A stretch of DNA of 64,000 nucleotides from Antedon mediterranea (lineage: Eukaryota > Animalia > Echinodermata), in contig NC_092671.1 in the NCBI RefSeq assembly GCF_964355755.1, positions 33,552,304 through 33,616,303 of the forward strand, in the 5' to 3' direction. Shown piece by piece: positions 11,917-58,428 of this stretch; position 1 is the first letter of the stretch; every line of letters starts with the position of its first letter. A program made the position numbers and the translations under genes. The notes under the pieces are model-generated. The model was not told the origin of the DNA and ran no database searches. It saw only the letters and a program-made list of their open reading frames with translations.

Positions 11917-14900
11917 TTTATCCCTGTTTTCGTCTTCTGCCCTCTGAAATTAGTTTTACAGAAAAAAAGTACTATAAGATTATACAATAAAACAATCTTA
12001 CATTTGATTGTGGAAAATATAATTTTAGTAAATTAGTTCACAACTTTTTCTGTACTTTAAATTCTGAAATTTGCTTCATCTGGTACATTCTCGGTATAGC
12101 AACGTTGTAATTTCAGATATTAACTACCTATTTTGACAATTAATAAATAATCTGAACACAAATTTTGAGTTCAACAATGGCTGTGCGATTCATAATCGTT
12201 ACAAATAATTAAAGCGCATGCGAATGATTCTTACATAGCATGAAATAGTCTAAAACATAATTAATGTTTATGAGTGCAATAGAGAAAATAATTTAATGAG
12301 GTGGAAGATGAATACTTGCTTATCAAGTAAAACGATTACATAGCTGCGTTCAGCGTCGAGAAAACGAAACACTGAGATGCAATTTTATTTGCCGGAGCCA
12401 GACCGGAGCCGAATCGGAGAACATTTGAAAGATGCTTAATACTAACTTTTCCCTTTAGGCTTAACAGTTGTACCCACTAGAGATTTTGGTAATAATTCAA
12501 TTGAAATAATAAAAATTTATAATTATATAATGATCAATTTGATAATTTGATTAATGTATGATTTTTTCGTATAAGTTACGTTTCACGGGGTTCACGTAAT
12601 GAAACCATTGATCCGTCAAGCTAAAACTAGTTTGACAACATTACAACATGCACTGGCTTCCTTGTCATCTTTTTCGTATAAATAATGGTGTAAGAAACAA
12701 TGAAAACACTGCGTATCTTTTTAAGATGTTATGTTAATAATTAAATTTGTATTATATAGATACTTACGACGACCTAGTTGTATTCGGCGTTCATGGTCTA
12801 AAAATAGATAGAAAAAGTCCTGACAATGACAGGATATTATAATGCACATTTGTTACATATTTACATTACAAAATATTTTATAAATAAAAAATATTACATT
12901 TATTTAGATTTCAAGAACACACCTTAATTTTGTCAACGACCAAAGAATCCTAGGCCTAGCCATAGCTGGGCTAAAGCACCTAAAATAGGCTAGAAATGCA
13001 GGAAATATACTGTATGGCCCTTCGAATGATTAAACCTTGATGGCCCAAACGGGAATTGTAGGGCTCCTGTCGGGGGCTTGCAAGATAAGGTTGCTTCAAT
13101 GGTATTTGTGTGAATCCCAATGTGTAACAGCTGTAAGTCAACGTGAAATAGTCGTTTGGCTCTTTTTGCATGATTAAGTCTTGCATGAACCAACGTGCAT
13201 TTTGTGCTACTGCCTGCTGAAACTAGCAGGATGAAGTTGCTGTCAATGATATTTTTGTGCATCCCATAGTGTAACAGTTACAATGCAACATGAATTAGTC
13301 GTTTGGCTCTGTTTGCACGTCTTGTATGGCCCAACGTGTATTTCTAGGCTACAGTCTGGGGCAACTTACATAGAGGATAAAGTTGACATGATTAACATCA
13401 TTTGTGGGCCTACAGTGGGGGGGGGGGGGGGTGTAGAAAGCGATGACCCCGAATTGGACGACCCCAACGATTTGGGCGACCTCGAATTGGACGACCTAGA
13501 ATTGGACAACCCATAACACGAAACCGACGACCCCTATAGCCTAGCCTAGCCTAGGCCTAAGTGTGGTATAACATCCCGAAGCCGAACATAGCCAAATATT
13601 TTTAAACCATACCTTATATAATACTCGCAAGCTAGCAATTGATTAAAAAAATTCAGAAATATCGCCAGTTGATACTGAATGTGTCGACACGAACAAACGA
13701 ACACATATGGAACGCCAAGAGTGCATCATTAGAACTGCATAAATTGGTCCACTCACCAAGTGCGAACATTTAAAAAAAAAAACGATCGTTTTAGGTTAAT
13801 TTAAATATGGTAATTATATTATAATCAGGTCAAAGATCAAAGTGATACTTCCGGTCATTTTTGGAGAAAAAATCCATTAGAGTAAATGATGTATTCTGAA
13901 CAAATCCTCTCTAGCTAGTTACATAGATCTGGCAACATAAAATGTAGTCATGTCGTTGGCCGCCATCTTGGGGCAAACGTACAGATAGCCTTGATTGAAT
14001 TTGATTTGATTTTATTATTTGGGTTAACGATGACCAATCCACTGAGCAAACCTTACCCGCCGCTGAAAAAGGGGCCGTTTTGACATGGTTTGCCATGTTT
14101 ATGATATTTCGTGTGCTAATCGAGTCGAATGCAGTTTTAATGATGACCTCCTGGCATTCCATATCTGTTCGTTTGTTCGTGTCGACACATTCATTATCAA
14201 ATGGCGATATTTCTGTATTTTTTCAATCAATTGCTTGTATCAATCAATCAATCAATCAATCAATTGCGAGTATTATATAAGGTATGGTTTAAAGAGCGTT
14301 GGCTATGTTTGGCTTCGGGATGTTATACCGCACTTAGGCCTAGGCTAGGCTATTAGGGGTCGTCGGTTTCGTGTTATGGGAGCACATTTGAAAGATGCTT
14401 AATACTACTTTTTCCTTTAGGCTTAACAGTTGTACCCACTAGAGATTTTGATAATAATTCAAATTGAAATATTAACAATTAATTATCAATTTGATAATTT
14501 GTTTAATGTATGATCTTTTCGTATAAGTTACATTTCATGGGGTTCACGATATGAAACCATTGATATATGGTGAAACTAAGATCCGTTAAGCTCTGTTTAC
14601 ACTATCAAACTAGTTTGACAAAAATTACAGCAATGGCTTCCTTGTCATCTTTTTTGTATAATTGATGGTGTAAGAAACAATGAAACACTGCGTATCTTTT
14701 TTAAATGTTATGTTAATAATTAAATTTGTATTATAATTATATATACTCACGACGACCTAGTTGTATTCGGCGTTCATAGTCTATAAATAGATAGAAAAAG
14801 TCCTGATAATGACAGGATATTATAATGCATATTTTTTACATATTTACATTACAAAACATTTTTATAAATAAAAAATATTATATTTATTTAGATTTTATAA

Positions 14901-17900
14901 ACACACCTATAATACTACTGTATTGTTAATTTTGTAAACGACCAAAGAATCCTAGGCCTAGACATAGCTGGGCCGGCTAAAGCGCCTAAAATAGGCTAGA
15001 AATGTAGGAAATATACTGTATGGCCCTTCGAATGATTAAACCTTGATGGCCCAAACGGGAATTGCTGGGCTCCTGTCTGGGGCTTGCAAGATAAGGTTGC
15101 TTCAATGGTATTTGTGTGCATCCCAATGTGTAACAGCTGCAAGTCAACGTGAAATAGTCGTTTGGCTCTGTTCGCAAGTCTTGTATGGCCCAACGTGCAT
15201 TTCTGGGCTACAGTCTGGGGCAACTTACATAGAGGATAAAGTTGACATGATTAACATCATTTGTGGAGCTACAGTGGGGCTACTGTCTTACAAGATAAAG
15301 TTACTGTCATTGCTGTATACACATGTGGTATTTTATCCGTGTGGATTTTAACATGATATAGAAATAAATTCATTTATACATATTAACTAACCTTTGTTTT
15401 GCTTCACTTATTCCTAACTTATCTCTGTGTACACTGTCAAATATTTTAACAAAAAAGTGTGATGTTCCCAAAATGGTAGTGATATACCCAAATATGGTAG
15501 TGATATGACATCATCCCGTCCATATATGGAAACATCTTATTTTTTGCAACATAAACTTTGATAGTGTAGACAGAGCTTAACATCATGCAAATTCTCATAC
15601 AAAATTGCTGAAATAATAAAAAAAGTGAAGTTTTGCTTTAGGTTTGCATCTTTAGCAACCAAGGATATCACGTTTCAGTTATAAGTTTAACTTACCAGAA
15701 TCGGGTTCAGTTTTATTGTCTGAAAAACAAAGTGCAACTTTAAAAATAAAAAACAAATTATTTGAGTACAATGAATTCCAATTTAAAAAACGTAATCAGG
15801 CCTCTAATGTACTAATATTGGTTTTAACTCTGTTTTGTTCGGAATATGATGCGCTCTGAAATACATAAATTACCACATGATTTATTAAAGAACTAATACA
15901 TTCATAAACATATGTTTATATTACATAGTTTACTCCTACCAAGTTTGTTTTGTGTAAACAAAATGTATATATATATATGTATGTATGTATGTGCGTATGA
16001 TATTGTCAATCTTCATCGTCCTATTAATGAATGGCCTATTACGATATTTACTCACGTTCCGCATCTACTCCTCTCATTCTATCCGAGTCTGAATAGAGCA
16101 ACCCTTTAAATACAAAATACATACAAATATTTATTTAGATAATGACAAACGAAATATACAAATGCAAAGAAAAAGAAACAACAGCATGGGTATATTTTTT
16201 AACCAAAACTAAAAACATAAATTAACATAATTAAATTGATGAATAAAAGTGGTATGAACCCACAAAAGATAAAAAATATAATAAACACTATGATGGGTAT
16301 TGATATTATTATATCAACTTTGTTTTGAAAGAAATGCAACCAACCAATTAATTTTTAATTGTTGATGTCAACTGCCCGTTTTTTATTTTATGATGTTTTC
16401 CTATAAACTTATATGGTACTACTTTTTCCTAATGATTAGCTTCGGCCCGATGAACCACCCTAATAAATTATTTTTGAAATAAATAAATTAAAATAAAATC
16501 GAATGTTTACAAAAATTTATTCTTCTAGCGGAAACATGCTATAATCTGTGATACTGATACAAAACACACACTTTGTATCTCTAGAGTAGTAAAAATATTA
16601 CAAACCTACGCATCATTAGATCAACTCGCGTACCCCATAGTACGTGCCCACGGATGGTTCTCGAAGATATAAAGCTTTGACGTAAAGAACTGAAAATTTT
16701 TCAAAGTTAAACCAAGGAACTCCATAAACGCGATATAATGTTAAGTAGTTGGATATAATTGTGCCCATCATTAGCAGGTCTATAAGCTTAAGATAGATTA
16801 CGTGAAACAAATGCAAAATGTGATAAATACCAAAAAACATAACCCACATTGGGAAAAGGCACATACAATTAACATTTACATATTGCATTACAGAACCTTA
16901 TCCACTCACCACCTACCAAAAAATCAATATAATCCTAGCCAAAATTTAACCTAAATTCATTTAATCGTCAATAACTATGTATCAGTCTAACTAAACTTAA
17001 TTAATAAACATGTTTAAGGTGTTAAAATCAGTACCGAAAGTATGTATCAACTTACTATAGGGTAAACATTCCAAAGTGGAGCGCGATTTACCGAATTTTG
17101 CTCTTACGTAAATTTATATATAAATGATATATGCCTATTTTGTAAATATACAATGTTAACGTGTAATTACTTACCTGTATCCTGAAATACATTGTTAACA
17201 TTAATAAAAACAAAAACAAATCATGTAGGAGGACAATAAGTAAATGTAATAGATGGAGGCCTGATTACAAAACCATTAATTGATTCATATTTTCAACTTT
17301 TTGATTAGCTTTTTTTTAAATTATTATTTTTTTTTGTCATATAATAATATATGTATATATGCACATTTATATAATTCTCTTATTTATAAGGTACATTGTT
17401 AAAAAATACATATCTTTTGAACAGTATATACATAAGAATAAGATTATTTTGATGTTAAAAAGTAACCACATTTACATTCATATACATTTTTAAAAATACA
17501 ATTAGTTAAATTTGTCGATGGCAATAAAATGACGATAACAATTGATTTAAAAAAACGTAGTTATGAAAAAGTGATTATTTTTGTTTTATTCTGTTCGTGT
17601 CCGTTTCGTTTTTTTAAATTATTTAACGTTTAACACAAGGATCAGCTTTAGTCTCAAGAAGCCTATGCAACATACAACAAATATGAGCTAAGCAACAGAA
17701 GGTGTAAATATATTATAAAAAGACATGAGACAAGTAAATAGTAAATCAGTTTACCTTTCAGTGTTAACGTTTACTGTATTGGTACCTTTGTGATGTTAGG
17801 CCTACATTGTACACGCATTGTTTGTGGGTGATTAATTTGTATAGTATAATAGCCACTTTTCAACTAGGCGAATTTGTTCGCACGATTAAACGTTTTGCAG

Positions 17901-18912
17901 AGAAAAAAAACCCGCTATATTCTTTCCACCGCAAGAAAGCGAATAGCTGTGAATTATGATGTTCATCTTGTGTCTATTCAGCAGATTGTCGATTGTCATG
18001 AGTACTCATGAACGCACCATAGCTTATTTCATGAGCTCTGATTAGTTGCACAATGTTTCACTTCGTAAAAAATAAAACAATTCGAACTACCAATTTCGAC
18101 GAAAAAGAGAATATGCATGCGTAGAAGCAACTGCTTTTAATTCGAAAAATTCGTCACTAGTGAAAAATCGGCTTTACGGAAAATATTAATAGGCCTATGT
18201 ACATGTTTATAAAATACTATACATACATTTTACAAAAACTAATTGATAATTTACTTACTGCATCTTCTTGACAACACAAAGCTTCGACTGGAAATAAAAT
18301 TACAAGAAGCTTACTTGTTGACATTCAGATTGCCCGTCAATAAGTTTTAAGTTTAAAGCTTATAATAAGATTGGTTTATCATAAAATAATGTTTGTGTCT
18401 CGGTAAGGGAAACAACTAGTTTAAAATATTACTAGGCACTTACTTGGATATTGTCCATAAACAAACTGAAATGAAGACACGAACAAAATCACAAGGATCA
18501 AAGTTTGAAAACTGCCGAAAAAGAAATATTTTGGCAGCCATGAATGGATAATAATGAAAGAAAAGAATAGAAATTAAAATGTGTAGGTACAAAAGCAACA
18601 TTACTCTATCTTCAACTTTTGTGGTTTATCAAAGTTTCTGATATGCGAATAGTCTACTAACGAAACTTTTTTAGGTAAATGTATCAGTAAAATGGATTGA
18701 AAAAAAAAAACGTTTCATCCATTCCACTAAAAATGTAATAAGTAATAAAAAAAAAATACATTTGAATAATATTGTTCTATTTTTATTTTTATCCCTTTAC
18801 TATGTATGATGTTTATACAGTATTGTTATCTGTGACAAGAAAGGCCCATTTTAAACCTCTATTTTGACCAAAATTGAATTGGAAGTACAGGTACTTACAA
18901 TTTAGCTTGCAT
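11917..18912 (-). CDS. Micro-exon gene A: predicted secreted peptide of about 86-110 aa
   Basis: GT-AG exons: 18912-18899 (MQAK-F), 18511-18444 (FQTLILVILFVSSFQFVYGQYP), 18287-18259 (IEALCCQEDA), 17181-17175 (7 nt, DT), optional weaker pair 17102-17056 and 16934-16910, 16088-16056 (DSDRMRGVDAE), 15719-15696 (HNKTEPDS), 14780-14751 (DYERRIQLGR), 12797-12768 (HHERRIQLGR), 11943-11917 (QGRRRKQG-stop). Phases join in frame. Candidate 3'UTR exon from 11834 with AATAAA at 11811-11806. Confidence 0.7.
12416..15278. repeat. About 0.9-1.0 kb direct duplication (12416-~13418 and 14379-~15278), each copy carrying a 30-nt micro-exon of gene A
   Basis: Both copies run from GGAG.ACATTTGAAAGATGCTT to TTAACATCATTTGTGG..CTACAGTGGGG with high identity and small indels. 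Confidence 0.93.
13510..14380. mobile_element. Foldback/MITE-like element with about 230-bp inverted arms
   Basis: 13510-13740 (CCCATAACACGAAACCGACGACCCC...AACTGCAT) is inverted at 14129-14380. Confidence 0.8.
15421..15579. mobile_element. Short MITE (empty form of the outer element of the 48.4-51.3 kb nest)
   Basis: CTCTGTGTACACTGTCAAA...TTTGATAGTGTAGACAGAG inverted ends; internal CCAAATATGGTAGTGATATGACATCATC. Confidence 0.7.
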
Positions 18913-23050: not shown

Positions 23051-23079
23051 CCAAAACAAACATACACACAACACAGACA

Positions 23080-24310: not shown

Positions 24311-24398
24311 CAAAGACTAAACAATTCCAGATGCACGAGTCACCATTAAAGATTCCACATCACCTCAAACTAGAAAACTTCCACAAGTTAAATGGAAG

Positions 24399-27350: not shown

Positions 27351-27443
27351 GTAACAAGTAACATTACAAATTGTTAATGACCCCATAGGCATGTACTCAA
27401 AGCCATGATTAATATTCTGTCAGCTCGACACGCACATGTTTTC

Positions 27444-34507: not shown

Positions 34508-35064
34508 GTTTGAATCTATTTTGATCAGTAATTGCGGTAACTCACTGGAATTCAATGACTACCAATTTGCATTTAAAGCAAAGCACTCGACTGATACGTG
34601 TATCTTTGTATTAAAACATGTAATTGACTACTACAATAGAAATGGTAGTCCAGTTTTTGCCGGCTTTCTAGATGCCAGTAAGGCTTTTGATCGAGTCAAT
34701 CTCTGGATTCTTTATAATAAGCTCATTAACAATGGTATTAATCTTTGTATTGTTAAATTGCTTAAATGTTGGTATGAGAAACAGAGTTTTGTGATACGTT
34801 GAGGAAACTCTGTTTCAAAAGCATTTACAGTATCTAATGGAGTTAGACAGGGTGGGGTTATGTCCCCTCTCCTTTGTAACATATATATCAGTACTCTTAA
34901 TTGTAGACTAAGTGGTTTGTGCCAGGGTTGCCAATTTAAAAACATTATCTTGAATCATCTTATTTATGCGGATGATCTTGTTCTACTTGCCCCCTCAGTT
35001 GCTGGTCTCCAGCAATTGGTACATGTTTGTGAAGAGTTTTCGCAAGAGAATGATGTTTTATTTA

Positions 35065-38000: not shown

Positions 38001-38395
38001 ACTATTCCTTTTGTTAGATTAACTAGTTCTTCTCACTTTATTTATGTTTCTGGCCCTAAAATTTGGAATCAATTAGATACTAGTATTGTTAACTCTTCCT
38101 CTCTCCCAACTTTTCGTAAAAAACTTAAAAGTAATTTGTTATCATTGTACTCAATCTAGACCTTCAAACTGTTTTTGTCATGACTTTTTTTTATTTTATT
38201 TAATAATTATATACAAATGTATTTTTTTCTTTTGTTTATGGGTCTTGCGTGACAAGTATTCTCTTCTTGCAAGATCCTCTATTAATGGTATTTTTTGTAT
38301 TTTCTCATTATAAATTATCATTCTTTTTTATTGTATTGTTATACCATTGATAGAAACTAATAAATGTTGAATTATTATTATTATTATTATTATTA
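35065..38395 (+). mobile_element. L2/CR1-group (Crack-like) LINE with near-complete ORF2
   Basis: APE ORF 35133-36278 (HLNIRS, LSETW, IYRPP, GDINID, SDHLP); RT ORF 36351-38159 (NYRPISLL, QYGFR, DLSKAFD, GVPQGSVLGP, FADD); AATAAA plus (TAT)n tail; TTATTTA at both junctions. Confidence 0.92.
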
Positions 38396-39288
38396 TTATT
38401 TAATGATAAGAAATCTTTTTGTATGTGTTTATGTCCTCGTACTTGCAAACTTGAAGGTAATTCTATTACTAAACTTTTTGGTAAAAAAGTTGCTTATGTT
38501 GAGAATCGTACCTACCTTGGTCATATTCTTATGTGTGATTGCAGTGATGAGGCTGACATTCAAAGTCAATACAGATCTTTATGTATTAGAAGCAACTCAC
38601 TCAATCGCAAATTTATGAAATGCTCTACCAATGTTAAATGTTGTCTCTTTAGATCTTACTGTATTAGTATGTATTGTGCAGCCCTTTGGTGTAACTATCG
38701 TATGAAGAATATTAGATCTCTTAATGTATGTTACAATAATGCTCTGCGCCGTATACTTAATGTCTCTAGAAGTAGTAGTGCCAGTGCAATGTTTATTGAA
38801 CATGGTGTCCCTTCCTTTAATGAGTACATGCGAAAATCTACCTATAGTTTTATGCAACGTATGTTGAATAGTGGTAACGTCCTTGTTGCTTGTGTTTGCA
38901 AAATTCTCCAAAATGTATTTTAGATGGAGAAGCATTCTATATACTTAAGTTTAGAGTTTACAATTTTTTTTTTTTTTTTTCTGATTATACGTTTATTAAT
39001 ATGGATGATATTTCCGAAATAAAAAGAAATTGAAAAAGCAATGTCAGTTCTAAGTAATAACAATACAAGGACTTCACACGATTAGAAGTATAGTATAAGG
39101 CTCTATTTATTCAAATTGTTTGCTCAGTAATATACTATTAAAAATGTTGGCAAAAAACAAAATGTTTTGAACATTAACCAAAACACAGTTCGTTCTTCTG
39201 GTAGATACTTGTAGGTATGTTTGATGCCACTACAGTAGGCCTACTTGTGTGCAATGCTAGACTACCGTTTGCCATGTCCACTTCATCT

Positions 39289-42200
39289 TTATCCTGGCCT
39301 CGGCCCTCTTACTGCTGATTTATGTGAAAAAAGAAGATATGTAATCATCTACATGTTAACACATGTTTATTTCTAACAATTTGCCTGACCTCTTACACAT
39401 ACCTAATAACAACATGTTGCTTTATTGACTAATGTGATGACACACTAGAGGTCCAGTTCAACCTAAAGCATCCCATATGTGTGGTTACCACCAAATCGTA
39501 GTTAATTGCATTAAGCATTATACTTACCTCCGTATCAGTTTCAGTAATAGAATATTGTGTATTGTACTGCAAATATTATGATGAATGCAATTTATGTACT
39601 TAGTAATATTTGAATACTTTAGTGGTTCTTATGTAACCTTTTGATAATTATTATAAACTATGAAATTGCTAAATCTGTCTAGTTACTTACGCCCTAGTTC
39701 ACGGAGGATTCGGTCACCATCTAAATATAGAAGGGAAAAAATGCATGATGATTACAAGTTCATATAATAATAATAACATAGTAAAGTCTTCATAGTAACT
39801 TACAACGATGTACGCTTTAAATGTTAGTACGTTGTATACAATTATTATCTCAAACAGCATTGTAATTTAAATAACACATCACACAAAATGAAAGCAGTAA
39901 ACCACACGATTGCACAGCAATCTGCAACTGATATCAAATGTATCTTGCCATGAACGGTACTCACCTAATCCTCGACGGATTCTGTTATAAACTGACATGC
40001 ATTCTGTTGAAATATTAACAGAAATTATAGAAATTATAAAGTAACAACATTATTACTTATTATATAGTAGGCCTAATAACAATAATAATACTCCCAATAT
40101 ATATTAATGATAATAGTTTATTGAACTATTGATTATCGATCAAAGAACTATGAGAAAAAACATCTAATTATATACTCATAAATCTCCTTTGATATAATTA
40201 TTTTGGTTACAATATTAGACAACCAGCTCTAACACAGCAAAGGGTATACCACGCTTGATTTGTTTAAAGTTGTACCATTTCAGTTATACGGTATTTAAAT
40301 AATGATAATGATACTAATATCACTTGAATGTACTGTATATAGCACAAATCCCACTAAGTACATAAAACCTAAAAGGAAAATCCAGTTTTTAAAGGACCAA
40401 TACCAGTCAACGTTTAACACGAATCTATTTTGAGAACTGAGAGGGCGTGGTACAAACCTTTTGGACAACGCTGCTCTCGCGTCTCCAATAATCATTCAGT
40501 GATATATTTCTAATCTCCTTTTTCATCACTTTTCAGTTACCATATTTTGACAATATTTTCCATAACCGGCCTTTTCATATAAACCACAGTATATAGGCCT
40601 ATACTCATAATTGAATATACTTCAGTAATAAAGGAAATAGTAATATTTATTAACAATGTTATTTGCTGTCATATTAGGCCACAGCTTTGTTTCGGGTATG
40701 CACTACACAGTATGGCGTCACAGCGACGGGGGTCTAGGCCCCGAATAATATATCTGACATTAAAGAATGTTTATAGAGATTTGAGACTAGGAAAGCCAAT
40801 CAGTTTCATTTTCCTTGTATGAGTGGAGAAGACAATGGCCACTAGCACTGGAAATTGTTCTTTATTGATAAACTATTGATAGCTACACCTAAACCTTAAA
40901 AGTTTAGAGTCATCGTCTAGGCCTACTAAACGATTGTATACAGCCCTACCTTAAAATAAGATAATGGATTGCGCAAAGACATCAATAAAGTGCAATATGT
41001 AGAATAAATTAAACAATAACACGCGTTGTTTATACAACTTGTACATTTTACTTACCTTTAGTGTTACCATTCAGGTCAATACATTCTTCTTCCCATGGAT
41101 CTGAAATATAAAATACAAAGATATTTTTTAATCCGCATCACACTAAAGAGTAGAGAAAAGAAATATCGAGTAATAATATAACAAGAAGAGGATATAACAT
41201 AGCAAAACAATAATTTTGACACAGCAAAGTCATTATTGGTACATTCAAGGGTAAATAACATATAAATATGCGACAGAAACCAATACTTACACTGACATTG
41301 CCCAAATTCAGCCTGAAATAAAAATACGGCTAAACACACAATGATCAACGTTTGCCATCTCCTGAAAAAAATGTGTATGTATACCTGTAGTTTTTTTTAT
41401 AAATCTAACCCACATAAACTACAACAAACAAAATATTTCTAAATGTGATATGTAAATAAATCAAAATTAAAATATCTAGAAGCATTTGTGTTCACATAAG
41501 TACCTTTTTCGATCACAAAATGTTATATAATATTACTGTTAAAGTTCTTGCTGATCCACCAATCACCAATAATGTTATTTTAAGTACTCTGTATCTTGTG
41601 ATTTTTATTATTTATAAAAGACGCAATAAATGAAATGAATTGGAAAATTGCGTCAAAGCATAATAAGCAAGTAAGGGTAGATTTGATAAACATTTTGTGT
41701 CAAGCTATTCAAAAGTTAATGAACAGAGGTATTCTAAATAACACTTAGTAAACGGATGCCAGGTTTTGGCCAGAAATCATATTCTTATTCCCGTCGCATT
41801 ATGCCTTCTTATTCTACCAAATTTCCGAACACTAGACCTATCATAATTTAATCTTTTGTGACGATTACAAAGACCACCTAACGACAAAGACTCAAATCCA
41901 ACTCATAATATGAGTAGGATCAAACCCAGTACCGTTTGATTACGATCATGCGGGAAATTACCTCACGATGATATTACACAGTTTAAGGTCAAAAGATTAG
42001 GCCTATATAAAATATTTTGATATTATGTTTAAATCCTTTAATAAAATGGTATAGTTGTATTATGTGTGATAAATAAAGACATTTTTAACATAATGTTGCT
42101 TTCAAGATTTACATGAATTATATGATAGAATAACAAAATAATATACATGCAAAGCTAAACCCAAATCGCTCAATCTATAGTTAATACAAATTTATAAAAA

Positions 42201-42294
42201 AGTGTCTTCAGATTTATCATCGTGGTTCCACCATTGCAAGATTACAGTAGTCAAATTATTATATGTCAATAAATACTTACAGTTTAGCTGACAT
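39289..42294 (-). CDS. Micro-exon gene B: predicted 74-aa secreted peptide
   Basis: Exons 42294-42281, 41361-41291, 41100-41056, 40003-39965, 39720-39691 and 39314-39289 give MSAKLRWQTLIIVCLAVFLFQAEFGQCQYPWEEECIDLNGNTKECMSVYNRIRRGLDGDRILRELGPVRGPRPG-stop. All donors are GTAAGT or GTGAGT. TATAAAG at 42360-42354; AATAAA at 39111-39106. Confidence 0.78.
40427..40761 (+). mobile_element. Diverged copy of the 5' leader and start of the SGNH ORF of the YR element, inside an intron of gene B
   Basis: Aligns with about 20298-20625 (ATTTTGAGAACTGA.AGGGCGTGGTACAA...ATGTTA..TGCTGTCATATTAGGCCACAGCTTTGT). Confidence 0.85.
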
Positions 42295-42347: not shown

Positions 42348-44903
42348 TATAGACTTTATAGACACACTTTGATATTATACATAATCCGATGCTTAAATAT
42401 CGTTTTAAACCTGTATAATAAATTTACGACTGAAAATGTTTAATTACAAAGGTTTTCATAATTATTTGAAATAAAATTTACAATATCACTATAGTCGTTA
42501 TTGTTATTATTCGAATATAATTCAATAAAACTCTGCATAAAAATATATCGTTTTAAACCTGTATAATATATTCACGACTGAAAATGTTTAATTACAAAGG
42601 TTAAACAACTATTTTCATAATTATTTGAAACAAATTTTACAATATCACAATAGTCGCTATTGTTATTATTCAAATATAATTCAATAAAACTTTGCATAAA
42701 CGAATAAAGTATGATTGAGGTGTTTTATTGTCTATGGAATGATAATTAATTGCACCTGTTGTATTTTCCAAATACAAGTCGAGAAATTGTACTGAAATGT
42801 ATACGTCAATAAATTTAGGTAGATCTGGTTAATAATTTTCTTCTGGATATTCCAAGTTGATATGAAAATTGGATTATTTAAACTGTCGTTTGTCATTGGT
42901 CAATTCGCTTGCGTTGCGTCCTATAAGTTTGAAACCAACTCGAGAGAGTAAGTTTTATATATTCTGAACTTGGATCGCCAAAAAGAAGATTATAACAAAA
43001 TACTATGATTGTTGTTATTATTATCAATAAGTGAAATAGAGAAAATGGTTAATCTTGTTTGAATCTTAGAAATTTAAAGTGTATGCATACATAACATTTC
43101 CATCTGTCAGATGCTGTAATGGACGAACTTGTTGGAATAATATACCTGATGAAATTCGTGTTCTATCTAACAACAAACTTTTTTCTTCTAAATAAAAAAA
43201 AAAACAACATTATTTCTAGATACTATTTACAACGTTTACGTTTTCTGAATCTGAACTGTTTGATCTGTGTACCGGTGTGAGTGTGGGTGTGTACCTGCTT
43301 GTGATTGCGTTTCAAAGAAATTAACAAAGTTAATATATGGCTCCTCCAACTCAGGCTTGCATTTTGGATGTGACTACCTTTTTTCAGCTTTCTATTTTTT
43401 TAATTATTATACATAATTATTTCGAGATAGAAATTTTGACATTCTTATATGATTGTCTGATGAAAATTCTAAATTGTATGTTTGTTTCCTTTTTGAAACC
43501 TTTTTACCTTTCATTGTTGTTATTGATTTTGTTTCTATCTTTTCTGTTTTAGAAGGAAATAAATGTTTATTTAGATTTGATTTGATGGAATTATTTCATT
43601 ATAGTTGAATCGGTAGTAATATTTATATAGACTTTATAGACACACTTTGATATTATACAGATAATCCGATGCTTAAATATCGTTTTAAACCTGTATAATA
43701 AATTTACGACTGAAAATGTTTAATTACAAAGGTTTTCATAATTATTTGAAATAAAATTTACAATATCACTATAGTCGTTATTGTTATTATTCGAATTTAA
43801 TTCAATAAAACTTTGCATAAAAATATATCGTTTTAAACCTGTATAATATATTCACGACTGAAAATGTTTAATTACAAAGGTTAAACAACTATTTTCATAA
43901 TTATTTGAAGCAAATTTTACAATATCACAATAGTCGCTATTGTTATTATTCAAATATAATTCAATAAAACTTTGTATAAACGAATAAAGTATGATTGAGG
44001 TGTTTTATTGTCTATGGAATGATAATTAATTGCACCTGTTGTATTTTCCAAATACAAGTCGAGAAATTGTACTGAAATGTATACGTCAATAAATTTAGGT
44101 AGATCTGGTTAATTATTTTCTTCTGGATATTCCAAGTTGATATGAAAATTGGATTATTTGAACTGTCGTTTGTCATTGGTCAATTCGCTTGCGTTGCGTC
44201 CTATAAGTTTGAAACCAACTCGAGAGAGTAAGTTTTATAAATTCTGAACTTGGATCGCCAAAAAGAAGATTATAACAACATACTATGATTGTTGTTATTA
44301 TTATCAATAAGTGAAATAGAGAAAATGATTAATCTTGTTTGAATCTTAGAAATTTAAAGTGTATGCATACATAACATTTTCATCTGTCAGATGCTGTAAT
44401 GGACGAACTTGTTGGAATAATATACCTGATGAAATTCGTGTTCTATCTAACAACAAACTTTTTTCTTCTAAATAAAAAAAAAACAACATTATTTCTAGAT
44501 ACTATTTACAACGTTTACGTTTTCTGAATCTGAACTGTTTGATCTGTGTACCGGTGTGAGTGTGGGTGTGTACCTGCTTGTGATTGCGTTTCAAAGAAAT
44601 TAACAAAGTTAATATATGGCTCCTCCAACTCAGGCTTGCATTTTGGATGTGGCTACCTTTTTTCAGCTTACTATTTTTTTAATTATTATACATAATTATT
44701 TCGAGATAGAAATTTTGACATTCTTATATGATTGTCTGATGAAAATTCTAAATTGTATGTTTGTTTCCTTTTTGAAACCTTTTTACCTTTCATTGTTGTT
44801 ATTGATTTTGTTTCTATCTTTTCTGTTTTAGAAGGAAATAAATGTTTATTTAGATTTGATTTGATGGAATTATTTCATTTTAGTTGAATCGGTAGTAATA
44901 TTT
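42348..44903. repeat. Recent tandem duplication of about 1.28 kb covering the upstream region of gene B
   Basis: Units 42348-43625 and 43626-44903 are near-identical; each has an internal duplication of about 150 bp. Confidence 0.95.
42354..42360 (-). promoter_or_regulatory. TATA box of gene B
   Basis: TATAAAG about 60 nt upstream of the ATG, the same position as the gene C TATA box. Confidence 0.6.
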
Positions 44904-45499
44904 GTGATATAGTTAGGGAATTGGATAGACACACCTTAACTGGTGAGAGCTTTTTAATATTGCTGTTGTCTATCCTCGGCATTGTATATTTATTCTGTCG
45001 AAATGAATAAAACAATATTTAAAAAAAACTAAAAAACGACGTGATGCGTCTGCCACTTATTTTTTCAAAAACTCATCACGTCCATTACCAGATAATTCTG
45101 CATCTTAGGTTCATATCATATTTGGTAGATAGTTATTTGCAATCTTACACAATCAAAATGGAGATGCAACAATTCTCGAAATTTGAAATCAATAGTTGCA
45201 ACATGATTTGCAAATGTTGTTGTTGTTGTGTCTGTATCATTTATTAGTTTAAATTGTAAAAATGCATAAATAAAGGTAATCTTGGTATATTTTAATATAG
45301 TGCAACTCCTTAAATGTTTTGTTGCAGAGGTTTTTATCTGTTTTCCAATTCTGTGTGATACAGGAATCATTTGCTTAAGATTGAAATTTCAAGCTCTGAC
45401 TGTAGATTGAAAAAAGTGTTTTGCATATGCCGACCGGAATGTGACACTACTACAAACCTAGGGTGAAATGTATTATATGAAGTTTCTTCGGTCAAAGGG

Positions 45500-46210
45500 T
45501 CTGTTACAACCGCTGATGTAAAAAAACGCCAGCTAATATCGAAACAACCACTAATGTAGAACAATCCACAATGTAGTAACACAAATTGCCTCCCAACTAA
45601 TGTAGTTACTATTGCCAGCTAATTTATAACATATTATATATTTAACAAACATTAGAAAATCATGTGCAAATGCATCTCTCTCACAAACGACTGATAGCCA
45701 CCACCACCTCTGTTAATGGAACGCTTCTCATAATTGACCACCTTAAGCGATCACACCTCTCGTCAGAAAAAGGTGGTCACTTACGAGAGTTGGTTGTCCT
45801 TTAACAGAGGTTGTCACTTAAGAGATGGCCGCGTTTTAAAAGTCAGTCGTTTACGAGAAGGGGATAGACTGAGAGCAGCTAAGTAAAGAAATGCATTTTC
45901 ACATGATTTAGACATAGGTTTGTAAAATATATAATATTTTCTGCATTAGCTGGCGACAGTAACTACATTAGGTGGAAGGCAAATTCCGTTACTGTATTAG
46001 CTGTTGACCGTTCTACATTAGCTGGTGTTGATTTTTATTTACTTTCATTTTATTTTAATACTTACATTTATTTATAATCAGCGTATGCTGACAATCAAGG
46101 GCCCTCTTACTAACTAAGCTGTTGGTGTTTCTACATTAGATGGAGGTTTTACTACATTAACGGTTGTTTCGACATTTGCTGGCGTTTTCTACATTATCGG
46201 TTGTAACAGG
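45500..46210. mobile_element. MITE-like element
   Basis: CTGTTACAACCG..GATGTAAAAAAACGCCAGC at the left is inverted as GCTGGCGTTTTCTACATTATCGGTTGTAACAG at the right. Confidence 0.65.
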
Positions 46211-46575
46211 GGCTTTTTTTTTAAATATCCCCACAACAAAACAAATTGATCTGCGTATGAAGAAAATCCTTAGTTTATGCCAGATATATTTAAAAAACAT
46301 GTCCGTTTAACCGTAATGTTATAAATAAATTCCTAAACTAGTGTTGAATAATGACAACAAACATGTTCAAGTTCTGTGTGTATTTAAGTAAACAAGAAAA
46401 ACATCTATATTCAAAGCATGAACAAGGTCTTACATCATTCCGGGTCATTTTCATGGGAATGAATACTAATTATTATAATTGAACAAAGAAAGTCACCCAA
46501 ACCGAGCGGATCCAAATGGAATATTGAAGTGTTATAATATCTCCATCGTCAATCTCACTGTGGCTGCTGCGACGA

Positions 46576-49500
46576 CTAAACATTCGGAATACCTATAAAT
46601 AATCGAAATATTTAAATATTATTAATTGTATGAAGCCATATTTAAATAAAAAAAGTTATGATTTAAAGTAATACGTTAGCCTATCATAGTTAAGTAACCC
46701 GCAAACTCCGTGTTCTTTGAGGTTTAAAAGGACTACAGTAAGCCATGTGTTCCCCAGATGGAAAGTCTCCTTAACCTTTATTTGTTTTAAGACTTTTTAA
46801 AACTTACCCTCTTTCCGAGATTTTGGTCTTGCTATTACAAAATTAAAAGAAAAACCCCACATTAATCGAACAATTTGTAAATACACGAACTTATAATATT
46901 ATTCTATTTAGTTCTATTGAACAAAAAAGTTATACTCTGTATCTACTGCACGTTGTGCTTTTTGTAAACATTTTCTACCACGCCTGAGGTTGTTGAATGA
47001 TCCTCATTTGAAAATCAACCTATAGCGTCGTCTATATCTGTTATATTCCGAGTTCAAAATTGGAGTACTGTCACGTTGAATGACATAGTTTTCAGGCGTA
47101 GACTTTGACAATGATTCAAGATGGGAGCAGATAATTAATTGTATAACATTTTACTTTTGTAGGTGTGATATAATTCAAATAATACATGTAAACTGTATTG
47201 TAATAATTTATATAAAATAATTTTCTCAATCTTTCATTATGTGTATGCTACTGTATTACAAACATGTTTAGTATACTTACTTTCAGAGTTTATTGAACGA
47301 GTAGGTACTGAAACAAAGATCAGAAGAAAATAAATACATAATATTTATTTCAGGGTAGATAAGCAAGGTATGGTAAAAAGCCTATTTAAATACAATACTT
47401 ACATTCATCCCGACGAAATCGTTTCTTTACTGAAAAATACAAACACGATAACTTAAAGTTCAAGTGAAAGATTATGCATAATATTATAGTGTGTTTTATT
47501 TGGCAAGGGGTCTATTTGTTAAAATTATGATAACTACGACCCATTTAGGCCATACATTTTTATACGATGTAGTTATAGATCAGGATGTATTGGTGAGGGG
47601 CAGGAAGTAACGCTGGTATTTTCCGCGATGTAGGCCGTTTAATACGTGACGAGTTTTAGATTGCACACACTAGTTAAAAAATATTTAAATACAATACTCA
47701 CATTCATTCCTACCATATCGTTTCTTAACTGAAAAATACAAACACGATAACTTACAGTTCAAATGAAAGATTATGCATAATATTATACAGCTTTTAACCT
47801 GACTAGTGGTTTAAGCGACTGCCTTAAATAGCATTAATTAAATAATAGAGAAAGCCTATTTTTAAAGTAATCACAATTTGAATTAAATCAATCGTTATTC
47901 ACTTAAAAGAACATTAAAAACAAACAAAAAAAGAACCAAAATAATGAATTCACTTAAAAGATACAGTTAACCCAATGACCAAGGGTTGACTAAATATTTT
48001 TTTAAAGACACTTTCCTTGTCATTTTTTGACGTTTTGTAAAATATGCATATAATATATTACTATATGGTTATAACAGGTTCCAAAGGACAATTTGAGTGT
48101 CAAATGGTAAAAATGTAATATGTGACATTAAAATGACACATTTAAAAAAAATCAAGGTGAAAATTTATCTTTAATGTTTTGTTTTCAACAAATTTTTTGG
48201 TTAAAGTAAGTAACTGATAATTATGTGACAATAAAATAGAGATAAGCAAAGATCGACTCTTGCTAGTCTCAAAACAATATTATGTATTACTATTGTAAAA
48301 AATTAGGCATGTGGTATATGTAATGTTGTGTCTAAGACTTACTACTTTCCTGACATTGCCCAAATTCAGCCTGGAATAAAAACACAACTAAAAACACAAC
48401 GACCAACGTTTGCAATCTCCTGAGAAAAATATATCTGTATGTTTAAAGCTCTGTCTACACAAATATCAAACTGGTTTGACGTGTCCAAATATCGTATCGT
48501 ATTCATGAAAGGGGACTAACTTTAGTCCTGGACTATCTCTGAAAATTAGTCCTAGACTATCTAGAAATGGTATTCATGAAAGGGGACTATCTTTAGTCCT
48601 CCACTTAACCTGGGCCGATTGCAATAAAGGCCTTAACCGCAGTCTTAGACTTAAACCCAAGATGAAACCTTTAGCAACGAGGGTCATAGATTTAAGACCA
48701 TTGCAATAAGAAGTTTAAGCATAAGATTTTCAGAGCCGAGGACTTAGATTCCAAGCCTCCTCCAGGCAGGCTTACGCTAACAACACGACGCGAGCGCTCT
48801 TAAAGGGGGATTCTGGGTTTAAAATTGCTTTTAAATATCGTTTATTTATTAAATAAAAAATATTATAACAATATAGACATTTCAGAATGAAGAAGTAATA
48901 ACGAGAAATTAAAAAAATTAAATTTCATATACATTTTAGGGTAAATTCATGGAAAGTCTGTCTTTTAGCAGCTTAGGGAAGCTCATTAATATTCATGAGA
49001 TATTCACAAAATCACGTCACCAGTGGATTCCAAACTCGCGACGTCATGTACGTTGTGTTTGTCAACTAATTTACATCTCTCTCCCCTGTCAAACGACGAC
49101 CACCATTGTGATCATTGTGAAATACATTTTTTGTAGATTTTCTAAGCTAGGCCTAAAGTGTAATAATAACAGTAGTAGCATATATTTATTTGACATTTAA
49201 TGAAATAAAAAATTTAGTACAGATACGGAGTCATAAATTATACTATTTTTATACCTCTATAGTACAGATCGTATTATCGGCTTCACGTACAATACTACTC
49301 TAGGCCTAGCCTAATAATAATATGGGCGAGAGCCATTCTGACTAGGGATTCCATGCCACGATGGCTACGTTAAAACAATGGGGCCCATGGGCCTAGCTAG
49401 TCTACTACTAGACGATTGGCCCATAAATAACAAAACCCATCCTATCAACCAAACTCTTAAACAATCTAAACCTAAAACATTCTACAAAATCGGCTGTAAA

Positions 49501-52500: not shown

Positions 52501-53099
52501 CTTAAAGAAATTAATCAATGCATACATAGCGCTCTAATTTGTTATTAGCCCTCCCTAGATGTGATGAAAGGCCGTTTTTGATTGGTTAATACTCACGGTA
52601 TGAACCTGGTACACGCGGCGCGCTGAACATGCGGTGATTCGGCTCCTTGAAGAAGACGAATTATTAATTATTCGGCCTACTTGATAATAATATTATTATC
52701 ATTAATGTAGGCTCGTTGATGAAAATTCTTCCGTCAATTTAAATGACCTAGGCCTAAGTGAATATTTAATTGCCAAGAAATCATTAATTAGTAATTATCT
52801 GTATACCATTATTATTCTTCGCAGGCTTATTACATAAAAGAGGCCTAGCTACACCCGACCCAGCAACAGTAGATATTCAACTGGTTGTTGGCTATGTAAT
52901 ATAAAAGATATCGCCTTTTATATCAGTAAAATATAAGATTTGACATCCCCTTGTGAATGATGTAATGTTCTTGAGAAATATATTTCTCTCAGCTAGCGCT
53001 ACGGGAAATATATTCCCTCGGGGATGTCAAATCTTATATTTAACCTCTAAGCAGGCAATATATCTTATAATATAAGCCTACTTACAGTTTAGCTCCCAT
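46576..53099 (-). CDS. Micro-exon gene C: predicted 70-aa secreted basic peptide
   Basis: Exons 53099-53086, 48419-48343, 47728-47702, 47429-47403, 47307-47281, 46831-46808 and 46592-46576 give MGAKLRLQTLVVVFLVVFLFQAEFGQCQES-IKKRYGRNE-LKKRFRRDE-LPTRSINSE-TRPKSRKE-GIPNV-stop. Internal exons of 27, 27, 27 and 24 nt are all phase 1-1. Confidence 0.82.
48447..51295. mobile_element. Four-layer nest of non-autonomous TIR elements in intron 1 of gene C
   Basis: Concentric inverted pairs: CTCTGTCTACAC / GTGTAGACAGAG; ATTCATGAAAGGGGACTA / TAGTCCCATTTCATGAAT; CCTGGGCCGATTGCAA / TTGCAATCCGCCCCAGG; innermost element 48804-50383. Confidence 0.8.
48804..50383. mobile_element. Kolobok-like non-autonomous DNA transposon
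   Basis: TTAA TSD at 48800-48803 and 50384-50387; 21-bp TIR AGGGGGATTCTGGGTTTAAAA versus AGGGGGGTTCCGGGTTTAAAA (purine-purine start). Confidence 0.75.
52085..52318 (-). mobile_element. tRNA-derived SINE
   Basis: Minus-strand head GGATAGCCGAGTGGTTAGG (A box) and GGGTTCAATGCCC (B box); (CTCAC)n tail; 10-bp TSD AATGGTATAT at 52075-52084 and 52319-52328. Confidence 0.82.
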
Positions 53100-54922: not shown

Positions 54923-56819
54923 GGATTGAATCAATTTGTTTAAAGGTTTTTGTTAAAATAATAATAATATTATTTTGATGTTACAAAATAATTGTTTTCT
55001 TTGGCAGAAATCAGCCTGGCATGTGTAAATATGTTCGTCTACGGATGTAAAACTACAGGTCAGGAAAACAGTCAAGATTTCAATTCTAACGTATGGCATG
55101 TATTGTGTAAATCTGATCAAGAAGGATATTTTGAATTAAAGCAGCGTTGGGTTTACCTACCTGTCCAACATATTTGATTTATGTACAATTAACCAAATAT
55201 TATATTTAAAATTCATGCCTGTACCTGAGCTTTAAAACAATAAGGATATTACAGTAAGTTAATTATAGTTGGACTTTTTTATTGTTGCGACTTACTTCCA
55301 GTGTTTATTCCTTTAGGAGGTGTTGAAAAAAAAACAAGAATAATAATATGAACGTATTGAAGTGAATAATTTTTTTTCATTTTTTTATATCGACGTCGAC
55401 AAAACCATGTTTTAAAACCGTGGTTGCGTTAGGTTTGACCTAACAAAGGGTTCAGATAACACTTTTAGCCCTAGCTAATTTTTTCTAGGTGGGATCAGGG
55501 AAACGACCCGCAATATTTTAAATAATATTTACTGAGTCTAATTATTTTACAACTACCAATTTTTTTAGATCCTTAAACCATGGAAAATTTGTCAATGCCG
55601 GTGTCATGAGCAGCTCCCTCTATATTTTATAAATAAACTTGTGCATGTTCCTGTAGCTACCCATAAAAAAAGGATTAAACAGCCTGATACGAAAAGCCAA
55701 AAAGATTGAAAATAAAAGAAATATCATAAGTACGTAACACTTTTATAAATACCAGCATGTACCTGACTGAATCTATTTAATATGTTTAAAAGGGCAGATT
55801 AAAAGTTTTATATTTTTAGTTAAACAAGTATAAAACAAAATTGGTTGCTGGTTGTAAGAACTGGATAGAAATTTAAAACATAACAAGCTTCTGGCATTAA
55901 AAACACTTACAATAAAATATTATAAAACTTCAAGTAAAATACAGCACAACATTATTTAATGCATGCACATTATTGCAAATATTAGGTTGTTGTACCTACA
56001 TCTAGTTATCTACTCACCTTCATTCAGACAGATTCTTTCATTATCTGAAATAAGTAAAGTGACATGGAGTAATAAAGAAGGTTATTCAATAGGCCTACGT
56101 TCTTATGATTAGTACCAAAGTTTGTATATCATTACAGGTGAAATTAATCTATTATATACATTTCGTTTACAAAATTCTATTGATTGTCTTTTTTTTAATT
56201 TACGTTTTTATGACCACCAATTTCTGTCAAGTTTCCATACATCATTTCTGACAGGGGACAGAATCAATCGTAATTGGCATACATTTCGCATCTTACCATT
56301 CTCATTTTCAGTACAGACTCAAATAATACTATAAATAATAAATACAACAATACTACAAATACAACAACTAGGCATAAAGTTAAGAAGTTTCTGTGAATAG
56401 AATATACGGTACACATTGCCAAAAGCAATAGTTACACAGATAAATAAAAACAAGTATGCTTAATCATAAGAAAAAAATGAGTAAATAATACAATTAATAG
56501 CTAATTTTAAATATATAGGATTAATTTACGTTTCATATATTTTCATAATATTAAAAAAAGAAGATCAGCTTTATGATATTTCGTCAAAGATCGGTTGGTG
56601 ATTGTATTAGGAAATAGAGTAAACAGGCGCATCGATAAATAGATTTCAATAATATAAAAATTGTAGAATGTTATTAAAAAAAATATAACCGATGATAAGT
56701 TTTAGGATGTTATAATTTTATAATAGTAAATATTCAAAGGAAAATAAAATGTAATAAACTATATAGTGACAGCATACAGTGACTTCATTACCAATCTGTT
56801 TAGAAAAAAAGATAACCGG

Positions 56820-57730
56820 AATTGTTTTCCAGTGTGGTGGGTGTACCGTAAAAAACATATAAATATGCTAGAATCCGTTCAGAGGAGAGCTACCTGCATG
56901 ATCTTAAAGAAAGGTTATTTTAGATCAACATTATATAGATAGAAGAAAGGGGCTAGGTCTAATGTCAATAGAGAATAGGCGTGATTTCTTAAACATGACA
57001 TTCATTGCCAATATAATAATTTCTCCACGATCTGATTTTATGAGTGAATATGTTGATTCTTTTTTAGTTAATAACCGACACCTATATATACTCACCTTTC
57101 ATCATGGTAGAGCTCGTACTGATGCTTTTAAATACTCAGGATTAGTACGGTTTCCTAAAATGTTTTCAGAACTTGGTGCTACGATCAGAAACAATCTTAT
57201 TGAAGAGTCGTTTTTTAAGTTTAAACACAGTTTAGAGCAACATTTTACAGATTTTTTAACTTTTCATATTTTTATTAACATGATTGTACATACTTTGAAT
57301 TTTTAACTTTTTAACTTTTATACAATGAGAATTTTTTACTTTTATACAATCAGAATTTTTAACTTTTATACAATCAGAATTTTTTACTTTTATACAATCA
57401 TAATTTTTAACTTTTATACAATCAGAATTTTTACCTTTTATTCAATCAGAATTTTTAACTTTTACACAATCAGAATTTTTAACTTTTACACAATCAGATT
57501 GTTCAGATAGCAATTGCATTTTTATTACACTTTTGTTAACATTTTATTATACCATATTTTTCTATGTATTTTTCTAAAGTTGTTAAATGTCGGTTTTATT
57601 GTATCGTTCAAGTTGACAGTGGCTGGTCAAGCACATCACAAGATGACAGTTTTATACTTTTGCTTTTCCGCTACTCCCCTGTTATACTTATATGTTTGTT
57701 TTTTTGCTATGTAGAAAGATTAAATATATA
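56820..57730 (+). mobile_element. 3' fragment of a CR1/L2-type LINE in intron 1 of gene D
   Basis: LESVQRRAT motif at about 56870 and a degenerate C-terminal ORF (56962-57306). Confidence 0.6.
57305..57500 (+). repeat. Minisatellite, 24-bp unit, about 8 copies
   Basis: Unit ATACAATCAGAATTTTTAACTTTT. Confidence 0.92.
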
Positions 57731-58428
57731 TTAAAATGAAGAATGTTCAAGTATCGGGAGTATATACACTAATAGTTATAACTTAGTTGAAATAGAAAAT
57801 GTTACATTAGGTTTGGGCATGGCAAACATGCTTGCGGTCAATATTTATCTAAAAATGTTTAGCCAAACGATATAATATTAGATAATAATCCTGTGAGTAA
57901 CTTCTAACTTTTTGGAGAAACGAAATCTCATGATAATAACCATGTATGTGTTAGCTTGGGAGTATAGGATATGCAACAATAACCTACAATGTACTTACAT
58001 TTTACTCGACATGATGATACAAGAATGCCGATGACAGCTTTAGATAAACAAAATAATAAAATAGTTTGAATAGTTTACTTTAAAGGAAGGGGTGAGGCTG
58101 AGAATATTATTTGAACGTTTCGTTTTCTGGATCGATAGTAATCAAAGAATAGATTATAAACAAGGACAGTCAAGTGGTGCGAGGCTTAGTTTTATTGAAA
58201 ACATTTTCAAAAAATGACCTCATGCACTGATTATAAATACAGTAGACATAGATATACTTTATTCTTCAAATGTAGGCAAAAGAGATTTTTGAAAATCGTG
58301 TCATTGTCGGTGTAAATTGTGGTAAAATGAAAAAAAGTATTTTGCATGTCTGAAAAAAAGTCCCGATCAGACCAAATAGCGTAAGCGATGCATGATGGGA
58401 CGGAATTTGATGCCAGTAAAATAATATA

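What the first reader, a model, noticed from the sequence alone, without database searches (positions are those of the whole stretch)
46576..48419. Gene C is built from 9-residue, one-exon-per-module cassettes with KR/RR sites
Seen: three consecutive 27-nt exons and one 24-nt exon, all phase 1-1, encode IKKRYGRNE, LKKRFRRDE, LPTRSINSE and TRPKSRKE. Established: KR/RR are prohormone-convertase sites, and Gly before a basic residue is an amidation signal. Inference: either a processed precursor or a cationic (antimicrobial or adhesive) peptide; any exon can be skipped without a frameshift.
Basis: partly seen in the sequence, partly recalled or inferred. Interest (0 to 1): 0.75.

Follow-up and report, generated by a model that had tools for sequence, protein, structure and literature searches.

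The report
Feather-star micro-exon secreted peptide family
This is a real, spliced feather-star gene whose small, predicted-secreted protein is assembled from 24-27-base exons; it likely belongs to a fast-evolving family cut at a conserved arginine site and probably varied by exon skipping, a design we found reported only in parasitic flatworms.

Summary
One spliced contig from run X1 (probably RNA) joins all four micro-exons (27, 27, 27, 24 nt; phase 1-1) to the signal exon and last exon, giving a 7-exon, 70-residue protein. The host is a feather star, probably Antedon. Gene C is one of four tandem paralogs. An A. mediterranea relative shares 25 of 28 N-terminal residues but has an acidic, non-alignable mature part, and its four RefSeq isoforms differ by whole 9-10-residue modules. 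The KR/RR sites are not enriched over shuffles (p 0.42-0.45), and cutting there gives 6-, 6-, 1- and 24-residue pieces. What recurs is a furin-type R-x-R-R site (gene C, gene B, the relative; not gene A). Charge flips (+8 versus -6 to -8), which argues against a family-wide cationic antimicrobial role. No skipping was seen for gene C itself. Best reading: an Antedon-specific, micro-exon-gene (MEG)-like secreted pro-peptide family with a conserved signal exon and hypervariable modules; processing, skipping in gene C and function are untested.

The parts
53086..53099 (-). Gene C exon 1, coding part (ATG + 14 nt, ends phase 2); TATA-like box at 53161
   Evidence: same 14-nt ATG/donor pattern at 4 of 4 paralogs; length of X1 contig fits; junction itself not printed
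48343..48419 (-). Gene C exon 2, 77 nt, signal peptide (phase 2 to 1)
   Evidence: X1 loose end matches its 3' end; 62 of 71 nt identical to gene B's signal exon
47702..47728 (-). Micro-exon module 1, 27 nt, phase 1-1 (R-Y-G-R)
   Evidence: joint in X1; duplicate of module 2
47403..47429 (-). Micro-exon module 2, 27 nt, phase 1-1 (R-F-R-R-D-E, furin-type site)
   Evidence: joints in X1; motif shared with A. mediterranea relative
47281..47307 (-). Micro-exon module 3, 27 nt, phase 1-1
   Evidence: joints in X1; X1 differs by 1 letter here
46808..46831 (-). Micro-exon module 4, 24 nt, phase 1-1
   Evidence: joints in X1
46576..46592 (-). Last exon, coding part and TAG stop
46034..46575 (-). 3' UTR; covered by X1 from about 46146; AATAAA-like signals at 46072, 46059, 46039
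   Evidence: true end not shown
47383..47787 (-). Two copies of a 106-nt unit (exon plus flanks; 47383-47488 and 47682-47787), 92% identical: recent exon duplication
39290..42294 (-). Paralog B: ATG exon, signal exon 41361-41291, phase 1-1 exons of 45, 39 and 30 nt, last exon ending Gly-stop (model from sequence only)
11917..18912 (-). Paralog A: 91-residue model with a duplicated 30-nt exon (model from sequence only)
56018..58012 (-). Paralog D: ATG exon, 94-nt signal-like exon, 27-nt module homologous to C's; frame does not connect

Best explanation
Gene C is a spliced seven-exon gene in a tandem cluster of four paralogs, and it likely encodes a secreted pro-peptide of an Antedon-specific family that is predicted to be cut by a furin-type convertase at R-x-R-R and probably varied by skipping single-exon modules, most likely for a fast-evolving outward-facing (recognition or defence) role. 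Shown: exon structure, splicing of the full form, exon duplication, paralog cluster, conserved signal region with non-alignable mature part. Inferred: secretion (hydrophobic N-terminus; cleavage after Cys27 would leave an N-terminal Gln), cutting after R-F-R-R (and perhaps R-Y-G-R, which would free an 8-residue Arg-Tyr-amide peptide), skipping in gene C (by analogy with the relative), and the role. Mechanism of growth: a constant signal exon ending in phase 1 is followed by ~27-30-nt exons that duplicate with their flanks; only 1-1 exons survive duplication without frameshift, so symmetry is first a product of duplication and only secondarily allows skipping.
For: Spliced contig with all modules. 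Four paralogs share the ATG-exon pattern and signal exon. A. mediterranea XP_071941526-29: 25 of 28 N-terminal residues identical to C but mature part not significantly similar (p 0.14), net charge -6 to -8 versus +8. Its 4 isoforms differ by whole modules; X2 lacks exactly one 9-residue module and creates a junction absent from X1. R-x-[K/R]-R is present in 3 of 4 mature regions tested (C, B, relative; not A), chance about 0.014 from shuffles; C and the relative share R-x-R-R-D-E. In C's duplicated unit the exon differs at 5 of 27 nt, the flanks at 3 of 79 (Fisher p 0.024; 3 clear amino-acid changes, 1 silent, 1 junction-dependent). Gene C meets the operational MEG rule of Olson et al. 2020 exactly at threshold. 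Relative's mature part is predicted unstructured (pLDDT 43-55, 3-row alignment).
Against: No skipped form of gene C among X1's contigs (one run; contigs drop rare variants). The relative's isoforms are RefSeq models on near-identical repeats and may include mapping artefacts; its exon structure and orthology to C were not seen. Gene C alone has R-x-[K/R]-R with chance 0.32; gene A and D's module lack it. The exon-versus-flank test is borderline, the block was defined by BLAST, and gene A's duplicate shows the reverse (1 of 30 in the exon, 33 mismatches in 293 aligned flank positions). Gene A has a 29+7-nt asymmetric exon pair. Micro-exons are only 50% of C's coding sequence. No expression site, peptide or activity data.
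Confidence: 0.5

Rival explanations
1. Unprocessed, disordered secreted matrix, mucus or adhesive protein (casein/SCPP-like logic, recalled); oppositely charged paralogs could pair electrostatically.
For: Very hydrophilic mature part (GRAVY -1.75); relative predicted unstructured; charge ranges from +8 to -8 in the family; dibasic sites not enriched.
Against: R-x-R-R-D-E is kept while neighbouring residues and charge turn over; chains are very short for structural matrix proteins; genes A and B end in Gly-stop, which suggests peptide maturation.
Confidence: 0.2
2. Gene C makes a cationic antimicrobial peptide, whole or after trimming.
For: 14 of 43 mature residues are Lys/Arg, net +8, pI about 11; conserved-signal/variable-mature pattern, Gly-Arg amidation and N-terminal pyroGlu are reported for sea-urchin centrocins (PMC4805251, passages); gene B's C-terminal stretch is amphipathic (p 0.011 uncorrected).
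Against: Only 8 of 43 residues hydrophobic (19%) against 29-42% in those peptides; no amphipathic helix in C (p 0.71 and 0.76); closest relative is acidic; no cysteine scaffold.
Confidence: 0.12
3. Neuropeptide or hormone precursor releasing an Arg-Tyr-amide peptide.
For: Signal peptide plus basic sites meets the loose criteria used for predicted crinoid neuropeptide precursors (PMC9793003 section 36); R-Y-G-R allows monobasic cleavage and amidation (recalled rule); gene A has two exons ending Gly-Arg.
Against: Sites not enriched; KR cleavage would destroy the amidated peptide; the Gly is absent from the sister exon and from the relative; mature part not conserved within the genus; no match among 16 A. 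mediterranea PCNP sequences read or in 7 supplement files searched for 6 motifs.
Confidence: 0.1
4. A turnover-prone, largely neutral cluster: the signal exon is constrained, the modules drift and skipping is splicing noise.
For: Paralog D does not connect in frame; gene B has a strong-site 39-nt exon with stops; region is rich in transposon remains.
Against: Full-length open frame spliced in another individual at 12-15 times the depth of intronic pieces (43.9 versus 2.9-3.6; contig depth is only a rough measure); an expressed-type relative is annotated in A. mediterranea; R-x-R-R-D-E retained.
Confidence: 0.08

Closest known systems
Uncharacterized Antedon mediterranea protein XP_071941526.1-XP_071941529.1 (isoforms X1-X4)
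   Same: Signal region 25 of 28 identical; 9-10-residue modules ending in Glu; R-x-R-R-D-E site.
   Different: Mature part acidic and made of two alternating repeats; not alignable to gene C beyond the site; no function annotated; ortholog or paralog not determined.
Micro-exon genes (MEGs) of Schistosoma, Echinococcus and Hymenolepis
   Same: Signal peptide, run of symmetric micro-exons, tandem arrays sharing only the N-terminus, exon duplication, fast divergence, isoforms by skipping (passages of PMC5825161, 10.1101/2020.04.08.031872, PMC4350168).
   Different: Free-living deuterostome; no sequence homology found; micro-exons 50% rather than about 80% of the coding sequence; modules of near-uniform 8-10 residues carrying a convertase-type site.
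Sea-urchin centrocins and strongylocins
   Same: Conserved signal with variable mature part; Gly-Arg amidation and pyroGlu (PMC4805251 passages).
   Different: No homology; gene C is much less hydrophobic, has no cysteine scaffold or heavy/light chain layout.
Nasonia nasonin-2/-6 (defensin repeats, one exon each, phase-1 introns)
   Same: Growth by exon duplication behind a signal peptide with a phase-1 intron (PMC2853521 passages).
   Different: Those modules are folded defensin domains without processing signals.
Casein/SCPP genes of vertebrates (recalled, not tested)
   Same: Secreted disordered proteins from duplicated short symmetric exons with skipping.
   Different: Phase-0 exons, phosphoserine/calcium-binding motifs; none evident in gene C.

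Membership tests
MEG, operational rule (Olson et al. 2020) | At least 7 exons, at least half under 70 nt and divisible by 3, run of at least 4 | tested here: met
   7 exons, 4 micro-exons, run of 4: exactly at each threshold; an unseen extra untranslated exon would give 4 of 8, still half
MEG, schistosome description (Li et al. 2018) | About 80% of coding region in symmetric 6-36-bp exons | tested here: not met
   105 of 210 nt = 50%
MEG | Signal peptide, secreted or surface product | tested here: inconclusive
   Hydrophobic N-terminus conserved in 4 paralogs and the relative, helix 4-30 in the relative's model; no signal-peptide predictor or secretion data available
MEG | Protein variants by exon skipping | tested here: inconclusive
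   None seen for gene C in X1; 4 module-skipping RefSeq isoforms in the relative
MEG | Homology to a platyhelminth MEG family | tested here: not met
   Profile searches returned only the Antedon protein and two repeat-rich chance hits (3 hits; 2 hits); queries were short, so distant kin could be missed
Neuropeptide precursor (crinoid PCNP criteria) | Peptides bounded by dibasic sites, often with C-terminal Gly | tested here: inconclusive
   Sites present but at chance level; products 6, 6, 1, 24 residues
Neuropeptide precursor (crinoid PCNP criteria) | Mature peptide conserved among crinoids / listed among known crinoid precursors | tested here: not met
   Mature part not similar to the closest relative (p 0.14); no match
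Echinoderm cationic antimicrobial peptides | Cationic | tested here: met
   net +8, 14 of 43 basic
Echinoderm cationic antimicrobial peptides | 29-42% hydrophobic, amphipathic or Cys-stabilised | tested here: not met
   19% hydrophobic by my residue set, moment not above shuffles, no Cys
Echinoderm cationic antimicrobial peptides | Antimicrobial activity | not testable with these tools
   needs synthetic peptide assays
Furin/PC-processed pro-peptide | R-x-[K/R]-R site conserved across homologs | tested here: met
   3 of 4 mature regions, chance about 0.014; consensus recalled
Furin/PC-processed pro-peptide | Cleavage in vivo | not testable with these tools
   needs peptidomics

The most novel reading that the evidence does not exclude
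Feather stars have independently evolved a MEG-type system: a constant signal exon drives a tandem family whose 8-10-residue exon modules are duplicated, mutated rapidly and skipped combinatorially, then cut by furin into a variable pool of short peptides used in recognition or defence. It would be a MEG-like diversification system in a free-living deuterostome, and one that couples skipping to proteolytic processing.
Probability: 0.3. Interest if true: 0.75.

Novelty: new variant of a known kind. Interest (0 to 1): 0.5.

Why it matters
MEGs have been described as apparently restricted to flatworms and read as a parasite's answer to host immunity (PMC4350168, passage). A similar architecture in a free-living crinoid would show that the design arises from signal-exon plus micro-exon duplication without parasitism, and offers an animal in which skipping, processing and function can be tested. 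It also flags a class of small secreted genes that annotation misses: only one locus of this family (4 isoform records) was found in the protein collections, against four genes in this window.

Tried and rejected
No RNA holder listed on record; X1 is RNA only by guess, so I rely on its joints at GT-AG boundaries, which the three DNA-like runs lack. No reads or contigs could be laid on genes A, B, D or on gene C's first two exons; those models rest on sequence alone. No whole genome held. Pfam: nothing above cut-off for 4 signal exons or the relative (a Conotoxin match at E 0.15-0.23 is below cut-off and covers the signal region). Word-based search with gene B's signal exon found nothing, a false negative, since searches found the relative. 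Two of three hits (P0122, P0124) were dropped as repetitive hydrophobic chance matches after reading them. Atlas: no usable hit. Metagenome scan for a 24-nt signal-exon motif: 0. Earlier findings: 5 look-ups, all empty. An 11-row alignment with micro-exon rows misaligned and was discarded. Module homology at DNA level: 9 of 45 pairs at p<0.05, only 3 near or below the Bonferroni level (C modules 1-2; C module 2 with D's module; two B exons), with lenient mononucleotide shuffles. The very small joint chance for R-x-R-R-[D/E] printed was not used: the pattern was chosen after seeing the data and gene B does not have it. KR/RR enrichment and an amphipathic helix in C were tested and rejected. Gene C's spliced protein was not folded or searched whole. 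Species not determined.

Full report
1. Observation. With the 77-nt signal exon (48419-48343), a 14-nt ATG exon 4.7 kb upstream (53099-53086) and the last exon (46592 to the stop ending at 46576) they give an open frame of 70 residues. Independent evidence: of 4 runs laid on 46210-47890, X1 has a 645-nt contig with joints at all four introns in that stretch and a loose end matching the signal exon; X2, X3 and X5 (one sample, perhaps the window's source) are contiguous DNA-like and show none of these joints. X1 is RNA only by guess, but exact GT-AG joints, 10 of 30 bins without depth and low-depth intronic pieces fit spliced RNA with some pre-mRNA. It carries its own variants (13-nt deletion and a substitution in the UTR, one letter in module 3). 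No skipped form was listed; contigs drop rare variants, so this is weak.

2. Context. The Gypsy element at the window's start is 92% identical to an Antedon mediterranea protein, other full-length hits 52-61%, so the host is a feather star, probably Antedon; species not determined. One 20-nt pattern (ATG exon plus donor) occurs exactly four times on the minus strand, each followed by a related signal exon: genes A, B, C, D, separated by transposon remains. A and B give 91- and 74-75-residue models, both ending Gly-stop; D does not connect in frame. Only C has RNA support. Modules arise by exon duplication: C's modules 1 and 2 lie in a 106-nt unit 92% identical, and A has a 30-nt exon duplicated with about 890 nt at 84%. 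Symmetry of phase is therefore expected from the mode of origin and is not by itself evidence of selection for skipping.

3. The relative. A profile of the four signal exons found P0123, A. mediterranea XP_071941528.1 (E 3.4e-06; 1 of 3 hits, the other two rejected). A second search added isoform X2 and nothing else among 354 candidates. From its second Met it shares 25 of 28 residues with C and 21 with B; the mature parts do not align significantly (p 0.14, 0.07); its net charge is -6 to -8 against +8 for C and 0 for A and B. It consists of alternating 9- and 10-residue modules; X1 has seven, X2 lacks one 9-residue module, X3 and X4 each lack a 9+10 pair. I did not see its exons or read support, and models over near-identical repeats can be artefacts; X2's junction is the hardest to explain that way.

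4. Processing. In C, KR/RR (3 observed, p 0.42), any dibasic (6, p 0.15), R-x-x-R (2, p 0.34) and Gly-basic (1, p 0.53) are all at chance for the composition. Cutting at KR/RR would give 6, 6, 1 and 24 residues and leave the amidation Gly behind one Tyr. The comparative signal is different: R-x-[K/R]-R, the furin consensus (recalled), is in C, B and the relative but not A; 3 of 4 has chance about 0.014, and C and the relative share the following Asp-Glu while everything around turns over. Module 1's R-Y-G-R is then most simply a derived copy; if it is cut after the last Arg and not at KR, it would free an 8-residue Arg-Tyr-amide peptide (inferred). Signal cleavage after Cys27 is preferred on the -3/-1 rule (recalled) and leaves gene B with two Cys.

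5. Rate. In the duplicated unit the exon differs at 5 of 27 nt and the flanks at 3 of 79 (p 0.024; 2 of 59 without splice signals, p 0.029), mostly changing amino acids. This is suggestive only: small numbers, BLAST-defined block, and A's duplicate shows the opposite (1 of 30 versus 33 of 293).

6. How it likely works. Shown: transcription and splicing of the full form, duplication of modules, a constant N-terminus with a variable remainder. Inferred: secretion; furin-type cutting into short hydrophilic peptides; module skipping; an outward-facing role such as recognition or defence, chosen because conserved-signal/variable-mature families in tandem arrays usually serve such roles (centrocins, MEGs). 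Confidence 0.5 for the whole; about 0.9 for the architecture, 0.6 for processing, 0.45 for skipping in C. A classical membrane-lytic antimicrobial peptide is unlikely for C (19% hydrophobic, no amphipathic moment), and so is a conserved neuropeptide.

7. Known kinds. It works like a flatworm MEG and meets the operational rule of Olson et al. (7 exons, half micro, run of 4) exactly at threshold, but fails the 80%-of-coding description (50%) and shows no homology, so it is not filed as a member. The Hymenolepis tandem array that shares only an N-terminal motif is the closest parallel. Many secreted repeat proteins could meet the operational rule, which tempers novelty.

8. In print. I found no description of this family: searches (0 papers; 2, neither echinoderm; none of the 30 listed contains 'microexon'; 3,758 matched loosely, so not exhaustive; 0 for two accessions and three motifs; 1, flatworm VALs; listings). 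Seen: PMC9793003 abstract, sections 7 and 36, motif search of 7 supplement files and parts 2-3 of 8 of file 3 (16 of 21 A. mediterranea PCNP rows have sequences; figures not held, long cells cut, one supplement store gave no answer); passages only of PMC5825161, PMC4350168, PMC2853521, PMC4805251 and bioRxiv 10.1101/2020.04.08.031872 (its supplements are closed). Subscription journals are not covered. Casein/SCPP, furin, monobasic-cleavage and signal-cleavage rules are recalled.

9. Verdict. Real feature; new variant of a known kind; interest 0.5.

Noticed in passing
window 11917-18912 (-): Paralog A model includes a 7-nt exon (17181-17175, phase 0 to 1) that restores frame after a 29-nt exon, a Cys-Cys pair, two near-identical 30-nt exons each ending Gly-Arg, and a stop inside the last 27-nt exon after Gly; the best amidation candidate in the cluster.
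   Followed up: partly
window 39290-42294 (-): Paralog B: acidic Cys-x9-Cys segment, R-I-R-R site, then an amphipathic stretch ending Gly-stop; looks more like a classical pro-peptide with an amidated C-terminal product than gene C. Last acceptor is a tandem NAGNAG; a strong-site 39-nt exon at 39566-39528 carries in-frame stops.
   Followed up: partly
window 56018-58012 (-): Paralog D: signal-like exon is 94 nt and ends in phase 0, out of frame with its 27-nt module; possible frameshifted pseudogene or incomplete model. A further donor-flanked candidate exon lies near 57095-57130.
   Followed up: partly
window 268-5685: Gypsy-type LTR retrotransposon with 99% identical terminal repeats over 131 nt but split reading frames; integrase lies before reverse transcriptase; 92% identical to an A. 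mediterranea protein.
   Followed up: partly
window 42348-44912: 1.28-kb tandem duplication, 98.5% identical, ending about 55 nt upstream of gene B's start codon and so duplicating its promoter region.
   Followed up: no
window 22262-27240 and 25027-26643: Remains of a tyrosine-recombinase (DIRS-like, by inspection) element interrupted by a LINE, flanked by 65-nt (21310-21932) and 44-nt (27443-27870) tandem arrays.
   Followed up: no
window 29817-38923: Nested LINE remains, including a near-intact endonuclease plus reverse-transcriptase pair at 35118-38159, between genes A and B.
   Followed up: no
window 46539-46559, 46778, 47388: Length variants between runs: 13-nt deletion in gene C's 3' UTR in X1; 10-nt insertion and 1-nt deletion in introns in X3 and X5 against X2, consistent with two haplotypes in one sample.
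   Followed up: no
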